Shown here: piece after piece, positions 2,864-46,820 of the stretch
Position numbering within the stretch: the stretch's first letter is position 1
Layout: every line of letters starts with the position of its first letter
Source of the DNA: a virus
DNA: 64,000 nucleotides
Virus genome (UHGV): UHGV-0098755
Reading direction: 5' to 3' (one strand)
The notes under the pieces: generated by a model
Database searches by the model: none
Seen by the model: the letters and a program-made list of their open reading frames with translations, nothing else
Told to the model about the DNA's origin: nothing
Made by a program: the position numbers and the translations under genes

Positions 2864-3712
2864 TTAATCAACTGCTATTGGATGAATAGCATTAAACTTA
2901 TGAAATGCTTCTGATTTTTCTTTACGCGAAACACACATGCGAAGAACCTTTAATGGCTCGTCTTCTTCACCCAACGATTTTCGTTTTTCAATATTAGAAG
3001 TTTTCCAACGAGCTTGCTCTGGAAACTCTCTATTGATTTGCTCAAGCGCTCTATTATGTTTAGAATTACTACGAATTGAACTACACCCGCCAGGAGCTTG
3101 TGCTTTTCCAGATACAACCAGATATTTGAACAAGGCCAAATGCGGATAACCTTGATTAATTAAATTGAGAAATGCATACATATCTTCGCATAAATCAATT
3201 TTTCCATACCCAATTTGTTCTGTCGTAAGTTTTCCAAGGTCATACCATGTATTCGTGAATCCATATGAATTTTCACGATAATTACCCCAAGATGAAGTAA
3301 TTTTAAAAATAGGTAGACGAGCATGGCCATGATAATACCCGCAATCCATGGCATCTTCAACGTATTGAATCAATTCATAGAACTGTTCACGAGTTAATTG
3401 ATTAATTTTATCTACGCAGCGACGATCATCTTTCTTTCGCATTGAACTCATACGAATAGTAGTATCATCATCAATCATCCAAATTCGTTGACCTGCATAC
3501 ATATCAGTAATTGCTTTACGAGTACCAGCAATTCCGTTAACATCATCAGGAATAGTTATAATTTTAGCTCTAGACCCATAAGCGTCATAATAAGCTTTTT
3601 CTTCGTGTTCACGTACTACAATATGAGGTTCATAATCAGTCGGAAACATATCAAGGGCAGAAACTGCCCCTACGCGTTGATAGCTTGGAATTACGAATTG
3701 AATCATTTCCAC
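2864..3712 (-). CDS. Glycosyltransferase with DXD motif at the beta-gt locus; candidate HMC-DNA sugar transferase (beta-alpha-gt-like), not T4 beta-gt
   Basis: 282-aa ORF between uvsX and gene 42 where T4 has 351-aa beta-gt; contains IWMIDDDTTIR (DXD-type motif); no resemblance to T4 beta-gt N-terminus as recalled. Confidence 0.55.
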   Translation of the reverse strand: MEMIQFVIPSYQRVGAVSALDMFPTDYEPHIVVREHEEKAYYDAYGSRAKIITIPDDVNGIAGTRKAITDMYAGQRIWMIDDDTTIRMSSMRKKDDRRCVDKINQLTREQFYELIQYVEDAMDCGYYHGHARLPIFKITSSWGNYRENSYGFTNTWYDLGKLTTEQIGYGKIDLCEDMYAFLNLINQGYPHLALFKYLVVSGKAQAPGGCSSIRSNSKHNRALEQINREFPEQARWKTSNIEKRKSLGEEDEPLKVLRMCVSRKEKSEAFHKFNAIHPIAVD

Positions 3713-4596: not shown

Positions 4597-4848
4597 TCAT
4601 TCCTTCTCTCTGATGATAATTACTTGATTTTGCTGTACAGATTTTTTAGTTTCACCTGCAATTGACCAAATAAATGTAATAAACCAACCAATAATTGACC
4701 AGTTAAACAGTAAAGATGTGAAAAAGATTCCTACTGTCGATTTTGACCCACGCATCAAGGCGATGAACCATGGAAGCATGTATATAATAATAGCCAACAC
4801 ACCTGAAACTAAAACCATAAAAATTGAACCTGCTACTAAAGTTTCCAT
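4597..4848 (-). CDS. imm: Superinfection immunity membrane protein
   Basis: 83-aa ORF with two hydrophobic helices, located between 42 and 43 as T4 imm (83 aa). Confidence 0.85.
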   Translation of the reverse strand: METLVAGSIFMVLVSGVLAIIIYMLPWFIALMRGSKSTVGIFFTSLLFNWSIIGWFITFIWSIAGETKKSVQQNQVIIIREKE

Positions 4849-4855
4849 GTTTTCC

Positions 4856-5236
4856 TCACTTAGTCAAATTTTTTACACATGAATTATAAGAATTTACTAC
4901 ATACTCCATCGGAGCATTTTTACCAGTACGCCATTGGTAATTATTAGCCCAATTTGCCCAAAGCTCAGCGCAGTAGTTTTCAATTTTTTCTTCGCGTGTA
5001 ATTACATCCGAATTACGATATGCTTGAGCAGATTCATCTGGGCGAATAGCTTCGTCAAAATTCGCCTGCATCTGTTCTACTGTCTGTTTTGGAGCTTCTT
5101 TATAACACTTGACGTTAGGATTATAAAATTTGCTTGAACAGTTTACAATTTTTCCTACATCAGACTGATTTACTACCGGTCCTTGAGCTACACAACCAGT
5201 AAGACCTAATGCAATAACCAAAATAGCGATTTTCAT
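4856..5236 (-). CDS. Small lipoprotein (signal peptide with lipobox LTGC)
   Basis: ORF track gives 4856..5347, but the upstream part is a translated promoter; likely start is ATG 5234-5236 (MKIAILVIALGLTGC) preceded by GGAG. Confidence 0.6.
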   Translation of the reverse strand: MKIAILVIALGLTGCVAQGPVVNQSDVGKIVNCSSKFYNPNVKCYKEAPKQTVEQMQANFDEAIRPDESAQAYRNSDVITREEKIENYCAELWANWANNYQWRTGKNAPMEYVVNSYNSCVKNLTK

Positions 5237-5261
5237 TTCATTCTCCAAATCCGTATCAGTT

Positions 5262-5315
5262 GATAGTTGTATAGTACCACAAAGGAACAGGGATGTAAAC
5301 AGTTTTGTGAAAAAA
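5262..5315 (-). promoter_or_regulatory. T4-type early promoter
   Basis: Minus strand reads GTTTACA, ~17 nt, TGGTACTATACA, with conserved upstream AAAATTTTTTTCACAAAACT region; drives the lipoprotein gene. Confidence 0.7.
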
Positions 5316-5384
5316 ATTTTTAGGGAATCCAAAGGGTCCAGAATCATCTCTTTTTCATAAGTATAGATTTATATTACTTGTATG

Positions 5385-5405
5385 AAAAAGGGACCTGGAG
5401 GTCCC
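5385..5405 (-). terminator. Intrinsic terminator after gene 43
   Basis: GGGACC-UCCA-GGUCCC hairpin followed by U-run on the minus-strand transcript. Confidence 0.7.
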
Positions 5406-5418
5406 TAGATTTATTCTA

Positions 5419-8115
5419 TCAGCCAAACAGGAAGTCTAACGAAGCTTTTTCTTCATAGTCCATGCCAGCCGATTCACACATACCCGCAAGCGGTTTAACA
5501 AACGATTTTTGGAACAAAGTTGAGTGGTCAATCCAAGATAGTACATCAGAACGAATTTCTTTTGGAAGTTCTGTACCCGACGGCCAAGCAATGCACTTGT
5601 CACCAAATGGATTTCCTTCACGTAATGGAAGAACCATTACCTTATTTCCATCCAAAATTGGAGCTACACCTAGACCACTAACAGCTCGACGATAAGTTAG
5701 CACCCCACGAATGTGGAACGGGCATTTAAATCCTGGCCAACCTTTATCGTCATATTTCGCTATATCGTTCGCGGTTTTTACTTCAGCAATAACTTTATAG
5801 TCAAGTTGACGATATTCTTTCTCGAAGTTCTTGTAGTATTCTTGGACAGACTCTTCACCTTCCTGAAGAATACGACGAATACTTTCTTCGAGAGCTTCTT
5901 GTACTGCTTTTGGTGTTGAACTCTGCTGAGTTTCCATACCCATGATTTTTAGATGTGGTTCAGCAAATCGCTTATCTTCCATATCATAAACGTTCAGAGC
6001 ATAACGTTTTTTCGCTTTCCAAAATCCACCGACACCCTTTGAACCAAGCGGAGGACAAGAAATAGCTTCACGGTCCATATGCATCAGATGCTCGCGGTTA
6101 TTCATATAATCACATAACTCACGATATGCAACATCAATCATAGGTTCCATCTTTTTCTTACCAAACTGATTCATGAATTCAACTAAATCATTTTGTTCTT
6201 TAAAGCGGTCAAGACCTACTTTTTCAATAACTTTATCTACACAGACATATACCGAATCAGTATCACCTGCTGCGATGAAATCTTCACCACCAGTTCCACA
6301 TACTTTATTCAGGTATTCATTAATTTTACGAGCAATCCACTGAATACCGACTTGACCAAAAATTGTGATAGCAGTAGCATTTCGCAAATCATAGTAACGG
6401 AAATGAATATTACCAAGAGCACCATAAAGACTGTTGATAAGAATTTTACGGTTTAGCTGATTTGTGTTAGCAAGTGTAGCTGCTTTTTCACATTCTTCAA
6501 TCAGACTATTGAGAACGGATTCGGTGTAATTCGATAGTTCATTTAAGAAATCATCACTGAACTTAACATATCGTTCAACTTCTGGTTTAGTTGAGCAAGA
6601 CCCTGCACCTTTCATAATAATCTTTTTAATAGCTTCGGCATTCATTTCTTCAGCGAACATTTTCTTTTTCCAATCTTTACGTTGGAAAAATACTTTAGCG
6701 ATTTCCTTTGGAATGATACCTTCTTGATGCTTATCATACATCCATCCATTCGGAGAACAAGAATATTCATCACTCGGTTTAGGAGCTGTTCCTGCAATAT
6801 ATTCATGAATTGGATGAACTTTAAACTGCCCACGAATAGTCTCAGGACTAATGTTAACCTGACGAATAATGCTAGGATACAGAGACGTCAAGTCAAAACT
6901 CATAATATATCGACGAGCAATTGGTTTAGGTTCAAACACAAATGCACCCGGAAAACTCTGTTTAACGTGCGAACCTTGTTGAGGAATAACCTTATGTTCA
7001 CCTTTCAATGAGTTAAAAATAATAGCATCCCAAGTTTTAATAGGACTCATTACACCGGAAAAAGGCATTTTAGCATAATAAGACATACTTAAAACTAGAT
7101 CGATAAACCCGCGAATTTTATCAATTGCTTGAACTGATTCTACGTCAATGATGTTATAACTAATGTATCGTTGATGATTAGTTTCACGAAGTTTATTAAT
7201 AGGACCGTCGTATGGTAATTTACCTTTTTTGGTTTCATGTTGAGCAACTGATTCCAAAGAGAATGACGGCAAATTAGTAAATGCGAATTTCTTATACAAA
7301 TCTAAATAATCAAGAATAGATACGCCATCAATAGAATAAATTTCTTTGCTACCGTACACATTTTGAATTAGTTTAGATTTTACTCGACCGATTGGAGAGA
7401 AGCGTTTCATACTACGTTCACCGAGAACCATTTTAACGCGATTCATGATATACGGAACGTCAAATCCCTCAATATTCCAACCAGTAAAAATAGCAGGTCG
7501 TTTCTGTTCCCAGAGATTGATATATTCCATGAGCATATCACGCTCATTATCGAATGGCATATAAATTACTCGGTCAAGAATTTCTTGAGGAACTTCATCA
7601 CCACCTTCACAGTCAAGCTTAGCAGCTAACTTTGCATCCCATTTTGATACTGAACCATACATTGAATTCAAAAGGTCGAAAACATAAAAACGATCGTCAA
7701 TTGAATCGTAATGAGTGATAGCATCAATTTCATATTCTGCTTTCATTGGGTCAGGAAATTTATCACCAGTAACCTCAATGTCACAGTTAGCTACACGAAC
7801 AAATTTTCGGTCATAAACAATTTCTGAACCGTATGTATCACTGATATAAGCGAGTTTAAAATCGTTCATACCGAGAGCTTCGAGACCGATGTCTTCCATT
7901 CGTTTCATCCAATCTCGAGCATCTTTCATTGATGGAAATTTTTGAGGAGCACAGTTTTTACCATAGATGTCTTTGTATTTTGACTCTTCCTTACAATGCC
8001 TAAACATAGTCGGAAGATATTCTACTTCACGAGTACGTTCCTTTCCGTTTTCATCAATATAACGTTCAACAATGTTATTTCCGACTGTTTCAATAGAGAT
8101 ATAAAATTCTTTCAT
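5419..8115 (-). CDS. 43: DNA polymerase (family B) gp43
   Basis: 898-aa ORF, same length as T4 gp43; exonuclease and polymerase motifs present (e.g. DIEV, YGDTDS-like AAGDTDSVYV). Confidence 0.97.
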   Translation of the reverse strand: MKEFYISIETVGNNIVERYIDENGKERTREVEYLPTMFRHCKEESKYKDIYGKNCAPQKFPSMKDARDWMKRMEDIGLEALGMNDFKLAYISDTYGSEIVYDRKFVRVANCDIEVTGDKFPDPMKAEYEIDAITHYDSIDDRFYVFDLLNSMYGSVSKWDAKLAAKLDCEGGDEVPQEILDRVIYMPFDNERDMLMEYINLWEQKRPAIFTGWNIEGFDVPYIMNRVKMVLGERSMKRFSPIGRVKSKLIQNVYGSKEIYSIDGVSILDYLDLYKKFAFTNLPSFSLESVAQHETKKGKLPYDGPINKLRETNHQRYISYNIIDVESVQAIDKIRGFIDLVLSMSYYAKMPFSGVMSPIKTWDAIIFNSLKGEHKVIPQQGSHVKQSFPGAFVFEPKPIARRYIMSFDLTSLYPSIIRQVNISPETIRGQFKVHPIHEYIAGTAPKPSDEYSCSPNGWMYDKHQEGIIPKEIAKVFFQRKDWKKKMFAEEMNAEAIKKIIMKGAGSCSTKPEVERYVKFSDDFLNELSNYTESVLNSLIEECEKAATLANTNQLNRKILINSLYGALGNIHFRYYDLRNATAITIFGQVGIQWIARKINEYLNKVCGTGGEDFIAAGDTDSVYVCVDKVIEKVGLDRFKEQNDLVEFMNQFGKKKMEPMIDVAYRELCDYMNNREHLMHMDREAISCPPLGSKGVGGFWKAKKRYALNVYDMEDKRFAEPHLKIMGMETQQSSTPKAVQEALEESIRRILQEGEESVQEYYKNFEKEYRQLDYKVIAEVKTANDIAKYDDKGWPGFKCPFHIRGVLTYRRAVSGLGVAPILDGNKVMVLPLREGNPFGDKCIAWPSGTELPKEIRSDVLSWIDHSTLFQKSFVKPLAGMCESAGMDYEEKASLDFLFG

Positions 8116-32370: not shown

Positions 32371-33384
32371 TCATTTATAATAACTTCGGTGGTTTTCAAG
32401 ATAAACCCTCTCAAGGAAGTCATCCCAGAAACCCATGTCTACTTTTTGCTGCATACCGTTCTTAGAAGCTTCAATTGATGCTGCTTCTACTTGATCGACC
32501 ACATCTTCCAAAAACTCTTGAACCGTTTTAAATGGATGTTTACCAAGCTTCACGTCGAGAATAAATGGAGCGTCTTGGAGTGGATAGACTAAGTCACCAG
32601 TTTTGTAAATTTCCAATAGTTGGAGTCCACCACGACAAGCATGACTCAGAGCTTTCCAGTCAATACCCTCATTCGCTTCAGCCTTACGAGCGCGTTCACC
32701 ATATTCGGCATCAAGTTTATTCAAAGACTGCTTAAGCTCAATAAGAGAAAGTGTTGTCTGATATTTACGACCCAACACGGTATAAAACGTTTGTGGGCCT
32801 GTTTTCTCATGATTATGGAATACCCATTCGCAGAATTCGTTCTCTGGAAGACGATGCTTAATATCTTCAACTTTAGTGCGACGTTGCTTAATAGAACCAT
32901 CTTCTTGGTAATCAACCCACTGGTCAGGGATTTGATTAACTACTTTCAATACATCACGTAATGCGGCCAAACGAGAACCCTTGACACCGTATTTAGAAGC
33001 TTGCTTGCGAACATATCCTAAATAGGATTTCATGTTAGTCGTATAAAAACGAGAACGATTGTCTTGAATGAACTTCCATACATCAGGCAAATCAGATTTA
33101 ACTACCAGTTCAGGTGGAGTGTGGAGCATATCCAATGCTACAGTTTCACCATCTGCTGCTAATTTAAAGAAATACTTAAGACTGTACAGTTCATGGTCAA
33201 TATCATCTTTAGTGTTTTTAGATGATGTGTTGTTAGTGTTTTTACTCATATGCTCTTTAACATTTCCAATAAGAATATCACGAGCAGGAGGAACAAAGAT
33301 TTCTTTAAAATCTACATCAGATTCTGGAGTAGAAGTTCCATAAAGATGACTACCAAAATAGCTTTTCATTACTGTTTTCATCAT
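32371..33384 (-). CDS. Pol-beta-superfamily nucleotidyltransferase
   Basis: 337-aa ORF; N-terminal FGSHLYGTSTPESDVDF (GS-x10-SDVD) plus downstream DIDHE acidic patch; strong terminator immediately after stop. Confidence 0.65.
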   Translation of the reverse strand: MMKTVMKSYFGSHLYGTSTPESDVDFKEIFVPPARDILIGNVKEHMSKNTNNTSSKNTKDDIDHELYSLKYFFKLAADGETVALDMLHTPPELVVKSDLPDVWKFIQDNRSRFYTTNMKSYLGYVRKQASKYGVKGSRLAALRDVLKVVNQIPDQWVDYQEDGSIKQRRTKVEDIKHRLPENEFCEWVFHNHEKTGPQTFYTVLGRKYQTTLSLIELKQSLNKLDAEYGERARKAEANEGIDWKALSHACRGGLQLLEIYKTGDLVYPLQDAPFILDVKLGKHPFKTVQEFLEDVVDQVEAASIEASKNGMQQKVDMGFWDDFLERVYLENHRSYYK

Positions 33385-33842
33385 TCAGCCTTATATTCAA
33401 TAACAGGACATACTTTAGCTTTACGCGCTTTTAAAAATTCGACGATAATAGATTTCTTGGGTTGAATAGGAGGTAAACCTTTATACGCCCTATCAATATT
33501 TTCTACGTGTAAAGCATAGTCCTTTTTCCATTTATAATCTTTATATTTTTCATGCAGTTGTGCAGGAATAACAAATGAACCAATAATAAGTAAAACAAGC
33601 AAAATGGCAAGTATAAATGCTGATGGAATAAGAGTCCATAAACTACCAAAAATAAGCCATTTCTGTATGATTTCTGCGCAGATGATAGTTAGACCTGCGA
33701 GTATAGTACATCCGAAAAAAGAAACGAAAAATGTAGGGATAACAATAGACCAAAAGTATGCGCACAGCGTCTTAGGTCGTTGCCATTCATCGTTAAACAA
33801 TTTGAATAATTTATAGTGCCAAGAGTTTTCATTAATAATCAT
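33381..33842 (-). CDS. Multi-pass membrane protein
   Basis: 153-aa ORF with at least three hydrophobic helices; stop overlaps the NTase start. Confidence 0.6.
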   Translation of the reverse strand: MIINENSWHYKLFKLFNDEWQRPKTLCAYFWSIVIPTFFVSFFGCTILAGLTIICAEIIQKWLIFGSLWTLIPSAFILAILLVLLIIGSFVIPAQLHEKYKDYKWKKDYALHVENIDRAYKGLPPIQPKKSIIVEFLKARKAKVCPVIEYKAE

Positions 33843-42075: not shown

Positions 42076-42654
42076 TTAATTACCACGGGCTGCATTAGCA
42101 ACGGCATAAGCGTACTGAACATTAGCGTCCTTAAACGTACCTTTAGAGGTATCTATTTCTGCCTTAAAGCCGCCTTTAGCCATAACATCGGCAAATTCTT
42201 TACGGAAAGCCATTGCATCAAGACCTTTCCATGATGATTTGTGCTTAGCGAATTCAAGACCAGCGTAGTTGACAGCCTTAGCTAATTTATTATCAATGAC
42301 CCATTTACCGGCTTTAGGCACAAACTTCGGGCCTTTTTGTTTAGAGAACAGTTTTAAATTCCAGCGACGAAGGTCACTGTCGGCTTTAACAAAAGCTGCG
42401 TCTAAGTTACTAGCAACAACATCTTCAATATGAGCAAATTTAAGTCCGTCAACTTCAATATTTAGATCGTTACGCCAGCGAAGTCCTTCCCAAGCGAAGG
42501 CTTTAAAGTCGGAAGCCTTTGTAGCTAAGTACCGTTCAATAGGAGCTGTTTTAGGGTCAAAGCCGTTTCCCGATCGGTAGGTCCACTCATCTTTATTAAT
42601 GCCTTTGGCCTTTACTATAGAAGCTTCGGCAATAAATTCTTGATAGGTTTTCAT
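42076..42654 (-). CDS. ipIII: Internal protein III (capsid-targeted)
   Basis: 192-aa basic ORF beginning MKTYQEFIAEA (capsid targeting sequence); length close to T4 IPIII. Confidence 0.8.
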   Translation of the reverse strand: MKTYQEFIAEASIVKAKGINKDEWTYRSGNGFDPKTAPIERYLATKASDFKAFAWEGLRWRNDLNIEVDGLKFAHIEDVVASNLDAAFVKADSDLRRWNLKLFSKQKGPKFVPKAGKWVIDNKLAKAVNYAGLEFAKHKSSWKGLDAMAFRKEFADVMAKGGFKAEIDTSKGTFKDANVQYAYAVANAARGN

Positions 42655-42677: not shown

Positions 42678-42716
42678 GAGTAATTATACCATATTAATAC
42701 TTAAGCGTAAACCGTT
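42678..42716 (-). promoter_or_regulatory. T4-type early promoter upstream of ipIII
   Basis: GTTTAC (42707-42712), TGGTATAATTAC. Confidence 0.7.
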
Positions 42717-42976
42717 TAAGCTTTACCGCCAGAAATAATTCCGAAGTTGTTAAAATCATATCCAATATCGTCAACATCTACTTTAGGACTTGCTACAACA
42801 TAAGCAATTTCACTACGTTTTGCACAGGTGTTGATTTCTTTACCATCGCCACCTAAGAAAGAATACCCATTACGTTTTAATGAGCCAAAGTCTTCCGCAT
42901 CACCAATGAAAGCTTTAACTTTAAATTTAGAACCTTTGGCATCTGCTTCAACGATAAATTCTTGATACATTTTCAT
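42716..42976 (-). CDS. Internal-protein-like small protein with capsid targeting sequence
   Basis: 86-aa ORF beginning MKMYQEFIVEA; own early promoter upstream. Confidence 0.65.
   Translation of the reverse strand: MKMYQEFIVEADAKGSKFKVKAFIGDAEDFGSLKRNGYSFLGGDGKEINTCAKRSEIAYVVASPKVDVDDIGYDFNNFGIISGGKA

Positions 42977-43145: not shown

Positions 43146-43146
<1 letters not shown>
43108..43146 (-). promoter_or_regulatory. T4-type early promoter inside the denV remnant
   Basis: GTTTAC (43138-43143), 17 nt, GATACTATATATTC. Confidence 0.65.
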
Positions 43147-44386
<1,240 letters not shown>

Positions 44387-44405
<19 letters not shown>

Positions 44406-44875
44406 TCAGTGATAAAGCTATTTAAATTTTGAGCATATTTCTTTTCATCATAAATCTTTTGCTGTCTGCGTAAACGCCATGGCATTTCAATGAACATACG
44501 CCATGTTCCTGATAATACTGCTGCTGTAAAAATATTAACAAGTATAGTTAAAAGAACCCAATCTCCTATTCTGTCCATTGGATTTTTTATAAAAAAGTAA
44601 AATACTAACGATGATATAGGAAGACTAATGATATACCACAGAAGAACCTTCTTATCTGTGAACCAATCAGCATTCGTTAACTTAGCGCGACCATTTTGAA
44701 TACACACGAATTTATCATCTGTTACCGTAAATGGCTTAGCTGCTTGATATCCCATTCTAAACTCCCTAATCAGCAAATTTTTCATATCTTCGGAACAGCC
44801 ATTCCAGTCAACTCTATCAACTGAAATGCCATCGTCCCCATCATCTAAATCATACCAGCGAGTTTTTAAAATCAT
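44387..44875 (-). CDS. Membrane protein (paralog trio member)
   Basis: 162-aa ORF; hydrophobic helices; C-terminal tail ending ...FITECRKLK. Confidence 0.5.
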
Positions 44876-45234
44876 TTAATTTTCCTACAATCACTCACAA
44901 ACTCTTCCATTGATTCATTTTCAATATAAGACATGTAGTTATTATATTCTTTTAATTGTATTTTGTAATCCTTTTTTCTTTGCCAATTTATTTTAAAATT
45001 ATCATAATGAAAATATAGCATGGTACCAAAGAATGAAAATAATGTAATCGCTATAGTAAAACGAAGTTCACTCCAAACCTCTGTTATAATTGCTGAACCA
45101 TCGATGTTTAAAATAATACAGTCAATTAACAATCCAATAAGACTACCAGCAAGAGCTGCAAATACTGACACGGCAAGAATTAATAGTGCCTCGGGAAACG
45201 AATATTTGACTTTATTTAGTTTTGGCTTTTGCAT
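44872..45234 (-). CDS. Membrane protein (paralog trio member)
   Basis: 120-aa ORF; two hydrophobic helices; tail ending ...EFVSDCRKIK. Confidence 0.5.
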   Translation of the reverse strand: MQKPKLNKVKYSFPEALLILAVSVFAALAGSLIGLLIDCIILNIDGSAIITEVWSELRFTIAITLFSFFGTMLYFHYDNFKINWQRKKDYKIQLKEYNNYMSYIENESMEEFVSDCRKIK

Positions 45235-45629
45235 CGTGATTCCTTAACAAATTTCATAATTTCATTAAATTCATACTCAGCAAGTTTAAGCTGGTGTTCC
45301 TTTTTAATCTTTTTACACTGTGCTTTCCAATCACGTACACGTTTACGATAATGTCTTCCTTGATACCAATATCCTATCCAATTTACAGGTACTAATAAAA
45401 GTGGAACTATTAATGGAAGAATTAGCATTAACACAAGTATTTCGCCAGAATCAATATCAGTCATAACATCTAAAACACCTCCAATAATCAATAGAATTAC
45501 AAATGATATGAGTATAACAGGACCTATTAATACATCAGTAGGAATTAGCTGGCGTTTTAATTCATACTTCAAAGGTTTACTTGGAAGGTATAGTGATGGC
45601 TTTGACATATTCTCTACATTCCTTAACAA
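45216..45629 (-). CDS. Membrane protein (paralog trio member)
   Basis: 137-aa ORF; hydrophobic helices; tail ...FVKESRCKSQN. Confidence 0.5.
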   Translation of the reverse strand: MLRNVENMSKPSLYLPSKPLKYELKRQLIPTDVLIGPVILISFVILLIIGGVLDVMTDIDSGEILVLMLILPLIVPLLLVPVNWIGYWYQGRHYRKRVRDWKAQCKKIKKEHQLKLAEYEFNEIMKFVKESRCKSQN

Positions 45630-46185
45630 ATTTTTCTAGTAATAAATCACTTTCAAAATTAGGATTTTCCACTAATTTATCAAAAAGATCATCAACAATA
45701 TTCAAGATATTTCTTTTACTAAGAATACGTTTATTTTCATGCTTCGTTTCAGAATCAACTATAAGAGTAAAGAAATATTTCTTTCCCTGAAATTTTACTG
45801 TAGTATCAATATAGAATAAATTTGACTTTTGTAAGTTACGTTTAAACCATGCGTCACTTAAACTATAAACGCCGAGATAATCAAAATCGTCGTTTAAATA
45901 ACATACTGTCCATTCAGGAGAAATGAAATCAGTAAATTCAACATCAAAATCACACGTCAATGAATGAATTGATTCAATACTGTTAATAAGTATTCCAGGA
46001 CGTATTAAAGACTTTTTACCTCTAGAAAATCTTCCAGAAAGACTTTCATCAGTTTCATATGAAGACCCCCAATAGTAATTACGTCCTTCTGCCATACGTT
46101 TAAGAGCATTTAATAATTGGTCTGGAACATCAACTTGTCTTTGGAATTCTTCAAACATTGAATTGAAATCACTTTGCATTTTCAT
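45577..46185 (-). CDS. Hypothetical protein
   Basis: 202-aa ORF. Confidence 0.5.
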   Translation of the reverse strand: MKMQSDFNSMFEEFQRQVDVPDQLLNALKRMAEGRNYYWGSSYETDESLSGRFSRGKKSLIRPGILINSIESIHSLTCDFDVEFTDFISPEWTVCYLNDDFDYLGVYSLSDAWFKRNLQKSNLFYIDTTVKFQGKKYFFTLIVDSETKHENKRILSKRNILNIVDDLFDKLVENPNFESDLLLEKFVKECREYVKAITIPSK

Positions 46186-46206
46186 TCCTATTTACTCCAA
46201 GTAATA

Positions 46207-46220
46207 GGGGCCGAAGCCCC
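46207..46220 (-). terminator. C(UUCG)G hairpin
   Basis: GGGGC-UUCG-GCCCC. Confidence 0.55.
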
Positions 46221-46226
46221 TTATCA

Positions 46227-46820
46227 TTATTTCAGAGAATTAATATATTCCTGAACATCGGCAGAGGTAGTTTCAACCCCAGAAATATTACCGTTAAAGG
46301 TTTCAACTCGAGCGAGAGTGTCTTCAATATCAACCTTAGTCAGCGCTGCAATTTCAACTACATCATCAGCAGTACTAATTCCAAGTGCATTCGCTGCACG
46401 AGTTTCACGGATATATTCCAATTTAACTGCAAGTTCTTGGCGAGCATCATCCAATTCAACTACTTTCTTGGCGATTTCAATTCGCATTTCAGCATAACCA
46501 TCAGCTTTAGTAGTCAACTGTTCAGCTGTTCGACGATATAGCAAACCGAGTTTAGCATGCATTGTTACATCTTGACCCTCGGAAAGAAGCTTGCGAATTT
46601 CACGCTCTTTTGATTCGGCCTGCTTATTCTTTTCAATAACAAGTTCACGAATACGTTTTTCTTCATTAATAGATTTAACAGAAGCAGTTTTTAGATCTTT
46701 AATTTTATCAAGTAGTTTTGCTGCTGCAGCAGTATACTGTTCTTCAACAGATAGATTTTTAGCCATAGCAGAACCAAGTTTAGTGCGAATAAACTCAACA
46801 ATTTTCTTCAGCATGTTCAT
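46227..46820 (-). CDS. Coiled-coil protein (possible PspA/IM30-like)
   Basis: 197-aa largely helical ORF with amphipathic N-terminus; family assignment tentative. Confidence 0.45.

What the first reader, a model, noticed from the sequence alone, without database searches (positions are those of the whole stretch)
44387..45629. Three tandem paralogous membrane proteins with conserved cytoplasmic tail
Three consecutive ORFs (162, 120, 137 aa) each have hydrophobic helices followed by a similar basic tail ending in a Cys-Arg-Lys/Cys-Lys motif ([26 protein letters not shown]), and their starts and stops overlap. Duplicated small membrane proteins in T-even accessory regions are candidates for superinfection exclusion or modulation of host envelope functions.
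Basis: seen in the sequence. Interest (0 to 1): 0.4.

Follow-up and report, generated by a model that had tools for sequence, protein, structure and literature searches.

The report
T4 e.2–e.4 membrane proteins, shared tail
The three ORFs are the known but uncharacterised T4-type genes e.2, e.3 and e.4: small inner-membrane proteins that share only a short conserved cytoplasmic end-piece, which the soluble upstream protein e.5 also carries, so they probably tether a common partner to the membrane.

Summary
The window is a Tequatrovirus (T4-like) genome. The three minus-strand ORFs are orthologues of T4 e.2 (44387-44875), e.3 (44872-45234) and e.4 (true start 45608, 130 aa rather than 137). They lie between e.5 and nudE/lysozyme e. 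Each has two hydrophobic helices, a short acidic loop and a basic cytoplasmic tail. Starts and stops overlap as described.

Paralogy is only partly supported. Pairwise and narrow-profile comparisons are not significant. Profiles spanning several genera link the tails of e.3 and e.4 (hhalign 81%, 42 columns). e.2 joins only through its last 12 residues and through RB69 ORF133c.

The robust feature is a C-terminal motif, Φ-E-x-F-[IV]-K-E-C-[RK]. It occurs three times in the six-frame translation of the window (0.16 expected), at the ends of e.2, e.3 and the soluble e.5; e.4 has a variant. It recurs in at least eight genera with synonymous codon turnover. It overlaps the next gene's ribosome-binding site, but that does not explain it.

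In T4 these proteins are made early and are dispensable in the laboratory. The upstream neighbour e.6 models as a Vipp1/PspA-like hairpin.

Best reading: duplicated membrane anchors that present a shared docking helix. The function is untested.

The parts
44387..44875 (-). e.2 orthologue, 162 aa. Soluble N-domain residues 1-76 (44648-44875), TM1 77-97 (44585-44647), loop 98-104, TM2 105-127 (44495-44563), cytoplasmic tail 128-162 (44390-44494), stop 44387-44389.
   Evidence: ORF. T4 annotation. 51 homologues, 82-99% identity, Pfam PF26896 Phage_T4_Y06M. PHROG 2203 'membrane protein'. Hydropathy and charge. AF2 helices 70-96 and 103-161, pLDDT 52.
44399..44416 (-). e.2 C-terminal motif FITECR. 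The next codons AGG AAA double as the Shine-Dalgarno sequence for nudE.
44872..45234 (-). e.3 orthologue, 120 aa. N-terminus 1-15, TM1 16-43 (45106-45189), loop 44-56, TM2 57-75 (45010-45066), tail 76-120 (44875-45009).
   Evidence: ORF. T4 annotation. 46 homologues. PHROG 2330. An exhaustive HMMER search finds only Tequatrovirus and Mosigvirus representatives.
44884..44901 (-). e.3 C-terminal motif FVSDCR. The next codons AGG AAA are the Shine-Dalgarno sequence for e.2, and the stop overlaps e.2's start (ATGA).
N-terminus 1-26 with the conserved LYLPSKP, TM1 27-46 (45471-45530), loop 47-55, TM2 56-79 (45372-45443), tail 80-130 (45219-45371).
   Evidence: 98 homologues, Pfam PF26873 Phage_T4_Y06O; PHROG 2604
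45234..45251 (-). e.4 variant motif FVKESR. AAGGAA is the Shine-Dalgarno sequence for e.3, and e.3's ATG lies in the following Arg-Cys codons.
45239..45254 (.). Copy 1 of a 16-nt exact direct repeat, AAATTTGTTAAGGAAT on the coding strand, encoding K-F-V-K-E in the e.4 tail.
   Evidence: D9. A repeat this long occurred in 0.3% of Markov simulations.
45618..45633 (.). Copy 2 of the 16-nt repeat, encoding K-F-V-K-E in the e.5 tail, just upstream of e.4's start.
45577..46185 (-). e.5 orthologue, 202 aa, soluble (no TM segment). It carries the same motif FVKECR at 45613-45630, 11 residues before its stop.
   Evidence: Pfam PF26876 Phage_T4_Y06P.
46227..46820 (-). e.6 orthologue, 197 aa, all-helical. 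It is the conserved upstream neighbour of e.5 in every genus examined and models as a Vipp1/PspA-like helical hairpin.
   Evidence: synteny; AF2, pLDDT 75, above 90 for residues 30-135; top 10 PDB matches are all Vipp1
43950..44390 (-). nudE (Nudix hydrolase), the last gene of the translationally coupled chain e.5>e.4>e.3>e.2>nudE. The start with a Shine-Dalgarno sequence is the ATG at 44390 (MKTLS...).

Best explanation
e.2, e.3 and e.4 are genuine early genes of a T4-type phage. Each encodes an N-in/C-in hairpin of two transmembrane helices in the inner membrane.

The transmembrane parts act as loosely constrained anchors. The conserved, functional part is the cytoplasmic tail: a juxtamembrane aromatic/basic cluster, a helical stretch, and a terminal helix with the motif Φ-E-x-F-[IV]-K-E-C-[RK]. 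The hydrophobic positions fall at i, i+3, i+4 and i+7.

The genes are highly diverged products of local duplication and recombination within the translationally coupled block e.5>e.4>e.3>e.2>nudE. The soluble upstream protein e.5 ends in the same helix.

The most likely mechanism is that the three proteins are membrane anchors. They present this terminal helix as a docking or oligomerisation element, either to one another and e.5, or to a common cytoplasmic partner. The best candidate partner is the conserved neighbour e.6, which models as a Vipp1/PspA (ESCRT-III-type) protein. The module would then act on inner-membrane integrity early in infection.

Shown: gene identity, topology pattern, motif, selection pattern, synteny and copy-number variation. 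Inferred: docking function, partner, and physiological role. The confidence given (0.45) is for the anchor-plus-docking-helix mechanism as a whole. The descriptive part alone (real genes, two-TM hairpins, conserved shared C-terminal motif under protein-level selection) I would put at about 0.85, and the specific link to e.6 at about 0.25.
For: Identity: 95-96% DNA identity to Tequatroviruses and orthology with T4 e.2, e.3 and e.4.

Topology.

Selection within seven Tequatrovirus genomes: pN/pS is 0.43-0.73 in the TM regions and 0.07-0.25 in the tails. pS is normal (0.18-0.26) in the e.2 and e.3 tails. It falls to about 0 only where the reading frames overlap.

Motif statistics: three hits against 0.16 expected, all C-terminal and within 1.3 kb.

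Motif conservation at the protein level: 24 non-redundant instances from Tequatro-, Mosig-, Dhaka-, Jiaoda-, Kanagawa-, Moon- and Biquartavirus and phage 212/SP18. Positions the search pattern did not force are also conserved: -3 hydrophobic 88%, -2 acidic 54%, +2 Lys 54%, +3 Glu 67%. Arg is encoded by AGG, AGA, CGA, CGC or CGT, and Cys by TGT or TGC. All differences in the e.5 E-C-R-E-Y codons between T4 and Dhakavirus are synonymous.

Independence from the ribosome-binding site: in Aeromonas phage SW69-9 the e.5-like gene keeps LFVDYCRR although a 67-nt gap follows it. In RB43-type phages the motif is internal.

Paralogy: e.3 vs e.4, 81%, E = 1.3e-5, 42 columns. e.3 vs e.2, 85%, 12 columns. 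RB69 133c vs e.3, 92%, and vs e.2, 80% over loop, TM2 and tail, 64 columns. A local iterative hmmsearch from e.3 pulls in the e.4 orthologues in round 1 with no decoy. A 16-nt exact repeat links the e.5 and e.4 tails.

Copy number: one 2-TM gene in Dhakavirus, two in phage 212 and Merlin, three in Jiaodavirus and T4-likes, four in RB69, none in Aeromonas or RB43 types. e.6-e.5 is always present.

Modularity: a natural in-frame e.4::e.2 fusion that deletes e.3 exists in phage UFV05, with the breakpoint at the shared 'PVT..SFV' in TM1.

Expression: early RNA, and all five proteins detected in T4 (PMC9697503 supplement).

e.6 fold. The review PMC7619361 describes small inner-membrane proteins PspB/PspC and LiaI recruiting PspA/LiaH, which is an analogous architecture.
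Against: No direct evidence exists for any interaction or phenotype.

Knock-down of e.2-e.6 in T4 had no fitness effect in the laboratory (PMC11879866 supplement file 15). T4 itself carries a frameshifted e.2.

Whole-length homology among the three proteins is not demonstrable. e.2 vs e.4 is not significant. PHROGs and Pfam keep them as separate families. HMMER searches on TM proteins recruited one decoy.

The amphipathicity of the terminal helix is only weak statistically, with z = 0.9-1.8.

e.6 has no sequence-level match to PspA/IM30. Its model was built from a single sequence, and helical hairpins are a simple fold. A hairpin separates e.6 from e.5. Phages with e.6 and e.5 but no 2-TM genes show that the anchors are optional.
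Confidence: 0.45

Rival explanations
1. Junction (translation-initiation) cassette. The shared 'tail' is conserved at the RNA level because it holds the Shine-Dalgarno sequence and spacer for the next, translationally coupled gene. The protein similarity would be a by-product, and the genes need not be related.
For: In the window, every motif sits 0-10 nt upstream of the next start codon. CRK is TGY-AGG-AAA, giving the SD sequence AGGAAA, followed by an ATGA overlap. KE is AAG-GAA, giving the SD sequence for e.3 and e.4. pS is about 0 in the e.5 and e.4 ends. A 16-nt exact repeat links the two junctions.
Against: Of about 55 tight junctions in the window, none other carries the motif. Codon usage for the conserved residues varies freely between genera. 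RB69 133c uses AAA GAA TGT CGA, and Dhakavirus e.5 uses GAA TGC CGC, where the SD sequence lies further downstream. pS is normal in the e.2 and e.3 tails. The motif is kept in Aeromonas SW69-9 with no adjacent downstream gene, and at an internal position in RB43 types.
Confidence: 0.08
2. Holin- or antiholin-like lysis regulators. These would be small two-TM proteins with charged C-terminal tails, encoded next to the endolysin gene e as a remnant or accessory lysis cassette.
For: Size, two TM helices, N-in/C-in topology and a basic C-terminal tail fit the generic description of class II holins (established knowledge). The genes lie two genes upstream of lysozyme e.
Against: There is no hit to any holin family in Pfam or PHROGs. 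RNA is early, and e.4 protein is early, in T4, whereas holins act late. T4 lysis depends on the holin t, encoded elsewhere (established knowledge). Knock-downs show no fitness effect. A holin role does not explain the motif shared with the soluble e.5.
Confidence: 0.07
3. Superinfection exclusion or another exclusion function, as for T4 Imm. The membrane proteins would alter the envelope so that secondary phage DNA cannot enter.
For: They are early, small inner-membrane proteins that are non-essential in single infection. The fast-evolving TM segments could reflect an arms race.
Against: There is no similarity to Imm or Sp. The periplasmic loops are only 7-13 residues and poorly conserved, while the conserved part is cytoplasmic. 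The idea does not explain the motif shared with e.5.
Confidence: 0.1
4. Counter-defence or host-takeover effectors. They would target a host membrane protein through their TM helices, or inhibit a membrane-acting abortive-infection effector. The tail motif would serve regulation or turnover.
For: High pN/pS in the TM regions. Lineage-specific copy number. No phenotype on laboratory E. coli. The genes sit in a hyperplastic accessory region.
Against: No PADLOC or other family hit. Relaxed constraint on a generic anchor explains the TM variation more simply. No target is known.
Confidence: 0.15
5. Unrelated ORFans whose resemblance is due to chance and composition.
For: Pairwise BLASTP is insignificant. 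They form separate PHROG and Pfam families.
Against: Motif statistics. Cross-genus conservation. Profile links.
Confidence: 0.03

Closest known systems
T4 genes e.2, e.3 and e.4 (UniProt P32273, P32274, P39222; Pfam Phage_T4_Y06M and Phage_T4_Y06O; PHROGs 2203, 2330, 2604)
   Same: Orthologues: same position between e.5 and nudE, with 95/120 (e.3) and 120/130 (e.4) identical residues. T4 annotates them as 'conserved hypothetical, predicted membrane protein'.
   Different: The window has the intact 162-aa e.2. The T4 reference has a -1/+1 frameshift pair and annotates only 102 aa. The databases treat the three as unrelated families and do not record the C-terminal motif shared with e.5.
Membrane anchors of PspA-family proteins: PspB/PspC (E. 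coli) and LiaI (B. subtilis)
   Same: Small inner-membrane proteins with cytoplasmic tails, encoded next to a PspA/Vipp1-type gene, which recruit it to the membrane (review PMC7619361). Here, two-TM proteins of 120-160 aa lie two genes downstream of e.6, whose model matches Vipp1/PspA.
   Different: There is no sequence similarity to PspB, PspC or LiaI. There are several diverged copies plus a soluble protein with the same end-helix. They are phage-encoded and early. No interaction has been shown.
T4 Imm (superinfection immunity protein)
   Same: An early, small, non-essential inner-membrane protein of the same phage group (established knowledge; annotation).
   Different: No detectable homology. 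The conserved part of e.2-e.4 is a long cytoplasmic tail.
Class II holins
   Same: Two TM helices, N-in/C-in topology, a charged C-terminal tail, and proximity to an endolysin gene.
   Different: Early expression, no family match, and dispensability.

Membership tests
T4 e.2 / e.3 / e.4 orthologous groups | Significant full-length sequence similarity to the T4 proteins and the same genomic position (e.5 ... nudE, e) | tested here: met
One paralogous family comprising e.2, e.3 and e.4 | Statistically significant similarity between the families over most of their length | tested here: not met
   BLASTP E = 0.005-0.1 on stretches of 37 residues or fewer. hhalign aligns only tails or termini. The TM regions never align.
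One paralogous family comprising e.2, e.3 and e.4 | Profile-level similarity of the cytoplasmic tails, including transitive links | tested here: inconclusive
   e.3-e.4 81% over 42 columns. e.3-e.2 85% but over only 12 columns. 133c-e.2 80% over 64 columns and 133c-e.3 92% over 18 columns. e.4-e.2 not significant. One decoy was recruited by iterative HMMER.
Proteins carrying the Φ-E-x-F-[IV]-K-E-C-[RK] C-terminal helix (defined here) | Motif within 18 residues of the C-terminus, conserved in orthologues from other genera | tested here: met
   e.2, e.3 and e.5 match strictly. e.4 matches with Ser, Ile, Val or Met at the Cys position.
Imm superinfection-immunity family | Match to the Pfam/PHROG family profile | tested here: not met
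   No hit at E <= 1 (Pfam) or E <= 0.1 (PHROGs).
Imm superinfection-immunity family | Blocks DNA entry of superinfecting phage | not testable with these tools
   Needs an experiment.
Holins (class II) | Small protein with two TM helices and a charged C-terminal tail | tested here: met
   This description is generic and not specific to holins.
Holins (class II) | Homology to a described holin family, and late expression timed with lysis | tested here: not met
   No family hit. RNA is early, and e.4 protein early, in T4.
PspB/PspC/LiaI-type anchors of PspA-family proteins | Sequence membership in the PspB, PspC or LiaI families | tested here: not met
   No Pfam or NCBIfam hit.
PspB/PspC/LiaI-type anchors of PspA-family proteins | Encoded beside a PspA/Vipp1-family gene | tested here: inconclusive
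   e.6 is always two genes upstream. Its single-sequence AF2 model has Vipp1 as all of its top 10 PDB matches, with E = 1.7e-4 to 1.5e-2 and TM-scores mostly 0.5-0.6. There is no sequence-level match.
PspB/PspC/LiaI-type anchors of PspA-family proteins | Physically recruits the PspA-like protein to the membrane | not testable with these tools
   No multimer prediction or experiment was available.

The most novel reading that the evidence does not exclude
T4-type phages would encode their own Psp/Lia-like membrane-maintenance module. It would consist of e.6 as a Vipp1/PspA (ESCRT-III superfamily) protein, e.5 as a soluble adaptor, and a variable set of two-TM anchors (e.4, e.3, e.2; RB69 133c). 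All would be joined through the shared C-terminal helix Φ-E-x-F-[IV]-K-E-C-[RK]. The module would be made early, to keep the inner membrane and proton-motive force intact during infection or to counter membrane-targeting host defences.
Probability: 0.25. Interest if true: 0.8.

Novelty: new variant of a known kind. Interest (0 to 1): 0.45.

Why it matters
The genes themselves are catalogued but uncharacterised ORFs of the best-studied phage.

What appears to be unrecorded is a short C-terminal helix that ties together three or four membrane proteins and a soluble neighbour. I found no mention of it in the Pfam or PHROG family definitions or in the papers searched. It is conserved at the protein level across at least eight genera of Straboviridae. 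This gives a concrete, mutable handle of nine residues for finding the partner and function of a block of five 'hypothetical' early genes.

If the partner is e.6, and e.6 is truly Vipp1/PspA-like, T4 would carry a viral counterpart of the bacterial phage-shock membrane-repair system. That would bear on how phages keep the host membrane energised until lysis.

If not, the result is still a clean example of two things. Tandem membrane-protein paralogues can diverge beyond recognition except for their functional tail. A ribosome-binding-site overlap can mimic such conservation without explaining it.

Tried and rejected
1. Pairwise BLASTP and profiles built only from Tequatrovirus homologues showed no usable similarity. 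The families are too narrow (66% identity or more), so other genera had to be fetched.

2. An exhaustive HMMER search of 1.84 billion representatives with the e.3 profile gave only five hits, all Tequatrovirus or Mosigvirus e.3. It provided no bridge to e.2 or e.4.

3. Pfam, PHROGs, NCBIfam, PADLOC and PDB sequence searches gave no informative family. The 'sulfurtransferase', 'DNA primase' and 'host specificity protein' names on some database entries have no support from these searches.

4. AF2 of e.2 had pLDDT 52, which is too poor for a fold search.

5. I considered that the tail motif is merely the downstream Shine-Dalgarno sequence and rejected this as the main cause.

6. I considered Cys as a metal or redox ligand. 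This is unlikely, because e.4 orthologues have Ser, Ile, Val or Met there and the position lies on the hydrophobic face.

7. The I/V-x-E of the motif resembles the gp21 prohead-protease cleavage consensus. I rejected this because these are membrane and early proteins and e.3 has V-S-D (reasoning only).

8. I noted a RegA-operator resemblance of AAAUUUGUUA from memory and did not pursue it.

9. A two-TM ORF at 33381-33842 was recruited by iterative HMMER, but hhalign does not support it (2.8% and 0.3%).

10. hhalign of e.6 against E. coli PspA, with the PspA sequence recalled from memory, found nothing.

11. The search for related loci with the wide alignment failed, and with the narrow alignment it gave only four loci.

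12. Full-text searches for e.2-e.6 or for a phage-encoded PspA in T4 found no functional study.
Full report
**What is there.**

The window is a Tequatrovirus (T4-like) genome. The 3.5 kb around the finding is 95-96% identical to many E. coli, Shigella and Yersinia T4-like phages.

On the minus strand the gene order matches T4: e.6, e.5, e.4, e.3, e.2, nudE, e. The finding's three ORFs are e.2 (44387-44875, 162 aa), e.3 (44872-45234, 120 aa) and e.4.

The annotated start is the ATG at 45608, giving MSKPSLYLPSKP... and 130 aa. That start is conserved in RB69, phage 212 and Jiaodavirus.

Against T4, e.3 is 95/120 identical, e.4 120/130 and e.5 198/202. T4's annotated e.2 has only 102 aa, because of a 1-nt deletion in an A-run followed 78 nt later by a 1-nt insertion.

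The overlaps are as described: e.5/e.4 32 nt, e.4/e.3 19 nt, e.3/e.2 ATGA, e.2/nudE ATGA at the start that has a Shine-Dalgarno sequence.

**Membrane character.**

Each protein has two hydrophobic segments. The loops between them are 7-13 residues, with 0-1 Lys/Arg and 1-3 acidic residues. The N-terminal flank and the tail are Lys/Arg-rich. By the positive-inside rule this gives N-in/C-in hairpins with tails of 35-51 residues in the cytoplasm.

e.2 also has a 76-residue soluble N-domain. AF2 for e.2 is poor (pLDDT 52), but it shows helices 70-96 and 103-161, so TM2 runs on into the tail.

**Are they paralogues?**

- Pairwise BLASTP gives only short terminal matches, E = 0.005-0.1.
- Each family is narrow. 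Homologues are 66-99% identical, and all are T4-like.
- Profiles built from those homologues do not match each other (hhalign 1-12%).
- PHROGs and Pfam keep the three apart.
- An exhaustive HMMER search with the e.3 profile found five representatives, all e.3.

I therefore fetched the same region from other genera: RB69, phage 212/SP18, three Dhakaviruses, Jiaoda-, Kanagawa-, Moon-, Biquarta- and Pseudotevenvirus. With these wider profiles:

| Comparison | hhalign probability | E-value | Columns aligned |
|---|---|---|---|
| e.3 vs e.4 | 81% | 1.3e-5 | 42 (whole cytoplasmic tail) |
| e.3 vs e.2 | 85% | 6e-6 | last 12 only |
| e.4 vs e.2 | not significant | – | – |
| RB69 ORF133c vs e.3 | 92% | 5e-7 | 18 |
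| RB69 ORF133c vs e.2 | 80% | 1.4e-5 | 64 (loop, TM2 and tail) |

ORF133c is a 101-aa two-TM protein.

A local iterative hmmsearch seeded with e.3 orthologues recruited e.4 orthologues in round 1 with no decoy. Round 2 also pulled in one unrelated two-TM decoy, which hhalign rejects. HMMER E-values on TM proteins therefore need caution.

Verdict on paralogy: common origin of e.3 and e.4 is probable. For e.2 it is plausible through its C-terminal half. Nothing is demonstrable for the TM helices.

**The tail motif.**

The pattern F[IV]x[ED]C[RK] occurs three times in the six-frame translation of the window, against 0.16 expected. The three hits are FITECR in e.2, FVSDCR in e.3 and FVKECR in e.5. 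It does not occur in T4 1-45000. e.5 has no TM segment. e.4 has FVKESR.

Across the fetched genera, 24 non-redundant proteins end in the motif. These are all e.5-like proteins and all the two-TM proteins that follow them. Positions I did not impose are also conserved: -3 hydrophobic 88%, -2 acidic 54%, +2 Lys 54%, +3 Glu 67%. The consensus is Φ-E-x-F-[IV]-K-E-C-[RK], with hydrophobic residues at i, i+3, i+4 and i+7.

In e.4 orthologues the Cys position holds Ser, Ile, Val or Met. Cys is therefore probably a hydrophobic-face residue rather than a ligand. The hydrophobic moment gives only weak support.

**Is the motif just the next gene's ribosome-binding site?**

In the window, CRK is TGY-AGG-AAA, which supplies the Shine-Dalgarno sequence and the ATGA overlap for the next gene. 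KE is AAG-GAA, which supplies the Shine-Dalgarno sequence for e.3 and e.4. A 16-nt exact repeat (AAATTTGTTAAGGAAT) links the e.5 and e.4 tails. A repeat that long arose in 0.3% of simulations.

This confound is real, but it does not explain the motif:

- None of about 55 other tight junctions in the window has it.
- Codons for the conserved residues vary freely. Arg is AGG, AGA, CGA, CGC or CGT, Lys is AAA or AAG, and Cys is TGT or TGC.
- All differences in the e.5 E-C-R-E-Y codons between T4 and Dhakavirus are synonymous.
- In Dhakavirus and Jiaodavirus e.5 the Shine-Dalgarno sequence lies downstream of the motif.
- Aeromonas phage SW69-9 keeps LFVDYCRR before a 67-nt gap.
- RB43-type e.5 has the motif 27 residues from its end.
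- Within seven Tequatrovirus genomes, synonymous diversity is normal in the e.2 and e.3 tails (pS 0.18-0.26). It vanishes only where the frames overlap.

**Selection and dynamics.**

pN/pS is 0.43-0.73 in the TM regions and 0.07-0.25 in the tails and N-termini. The cytoplasmic parts carry the constraint.

Copy number varies while e.6-e.5 is constant:

| Group | Two-TM genes after e.5 |
|---|---|
| Aeromonas and RB43 types | 0 |
| Dhakavirus, Kanagawavirus | 1 |
| Phage 212, Merlin | 2 |
| T4-likes, Jiaodavirus | 3 |
| RB69 (e.4, e.3, 133c, e.2; about 3 kb of other ORFs between e.3 and e.2) | 4 |

Phage UFV05 carries an in-frame e.4(1-31)::e.2(89-162) fusion that lacks e.3. The join lies at a shared 'PVT..SFV' stretch in TM1.

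**What is known.**

T4 annotation and two genome-wide studies list these genes as 'conserved hypothetical, predicted membrane protein'.

- RNA is early for all five genes. Proteins are detected early for e.4 and e.5, in the middle period for e.2, e.6 and nudE, and late for e.3 (PMC9697503 supplement files 4 and 6).
- CRISPRi-ART knock-downs of e.2-e.6 are 'Not Fit', meaning no fitness effect (PMC11879866 supplement file 15).
- I found no functional study.

**Context.**

e.6 is widespread, in 1107 phage records. A single-sequence AF2 model has pLDDT 75, above 90 for residues 30-135. It shows a hairpin (H3-80, H86-145) followed by three short helices.

Its ten best PDB matches are all Vipp1, with E = 1.7e-4 to 1.5e-2 and near full-length coverage. 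CHMP1B follows, with PspA lower in the list. Sequence methods see nothing. I found no paper on this.

In bacteria, small membrane proteins (PspB/PspC, LiaI) recruit PspA/LiaH (PMC7619361).

**Mechanism.**

I commit to the following. e.2, e.3 and e.4 are duplicated, diverged two-TM anchors whose function lies in the cytoplasmic tail. The terminal helix is a docking or oligomerisation element shared with e.5. The most attractive partner is e.6, which would make a phage Psp/Lia-like membrane module.

The anatomy, motif, selection pattern and synteny are shown. The docking function, the partner and the physiological role are inferred.

Rivals are weighed in the dedicated fields. The RBS-cassette and chance explanations are largely excluded. 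A holin-like role is disfavoured by the early expression. Superinfection exclusion and counter-defence remain open.

**Verdict.**

Whole-length paralogy is overstated. There is an unrecorded conserved C-terminal motif that extends to e.5. The finding is of moderate interest, and of higher interest if the link to e.6 holds.

Noticed in passing
window 46227-46820 (minus), e.6: The single-sequence AF2 model is a long helical hairpin followed by three short helices. Its ten best PDB matches are all Vipp1, followed by CHMP1B (ESCRT-III), with PspA lower in the list. No sequence-level match to PspA/IM30 was found, and no paper on it. e.6 is conserved in 1107 phage records across Straboviridae.
   Followed up: partly
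L005 (RB69) 4746-5541; L006 (phage 212) 4191-5252; L017 4311-5390; L018 4666-5435: Downstream of e.3 in Mosig-, Dhaka-, Kanagawa- and Moonviruses lies a tandem array of three to four small soluble proteins. Most end in G-x-W-[VI]-S-S-S-x-x-C followed by a stop, and some have shorter variants (W-x-P-S-S-C, SSMSC). Many are followed by TAAGGAAA...ATG. This is a second family of tandem paralogues with a C-terminal Cys motif, and it is absent from the T4-like window.
   Followed up: no
L001 (T4) 3153-3461 versus window 44387-44875: The T4 reference e.2 differs from the intact 162-aa gene by a 1-nt deletion in an A-run (nt 287) and a 1-nt insertion 78 nt later. T4 therefore annotates a 102-aa product, and a separate 36-aa PHROG (35580) covers the C-terminal remainder.
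   Followed up: partly
L015 2501-2821 (phage vB_EcoM-UFV05): A natural in-frame fusion of e.4 residues 1-31 to e.2 residues 89-162 deletes e.3. It is seen on five contigs. The breakpoint lies in a short stretch shared by both TM1 helices (CCTGTGAC; PVT..SFV).
   Followed up: yes
window 44390-44405: The nudE start is ambiguous. The 151-aa form annotated in T4 starts at an ATG formed by e.2's Glu-Cys codons and has no Shine-Dalgarno sequence. The second ATG (MKTLS) has AGGAAA 5 nt upstream and overlaps e.2's stop as ATGA.
   Followed up: partly
window 45569-45589 (e.4 residues 7-13): The e.4 N-terminus LYLPS[KE]P is nearly invariant in Tequatro-, Mosig- and Jiaodavirus and phage 212 (RB69 has LYMPSKP). 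It is a second conserved cytoplasmic peptide of unknown role. e.3 starts with a related M-x-K-P-x-L.
   Followed up: no
window 33381-33842 (minus): A 153-aa two-TM ORF in the nrdC region has a tail ...KWKKDYALHVEN...IIVEFLKARK that loosely resembles the e.3 tail. Iterative HMMER recruited it (E = 7e-4), but hhalign does not support it (2.8%).
   Followed up: yes
database names of P0007, P0009, P0068, P0076; records under H158 and others: Homologues of e.3 and e.4 are named 'sulfurtransferase' or 'DNA primase', and e.6 is named 'host specificity protein', in several GenBank records. No Pfam or NCBIfam model supports these names.
   Followed up: partly
window 42076-42654, 42716-42976, 43146-43442 (minus): Three ORFs downstream of lysozyme e begin, or contain near the start, MK(T/M)Y(Q/S)EF... 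. From memory, this is the capsid-targeting leader typical of T4 internal proteins. The set differs from T4's ipII/ipIII arrangement.
   Followed up: no
window 46206-46221: A GC-rich hairpin, GGGGCTTCGGCCCC, lies between e.6 and e.5. It marks the start of the tightly coupled e.5-nudE block.
   Followed up: no
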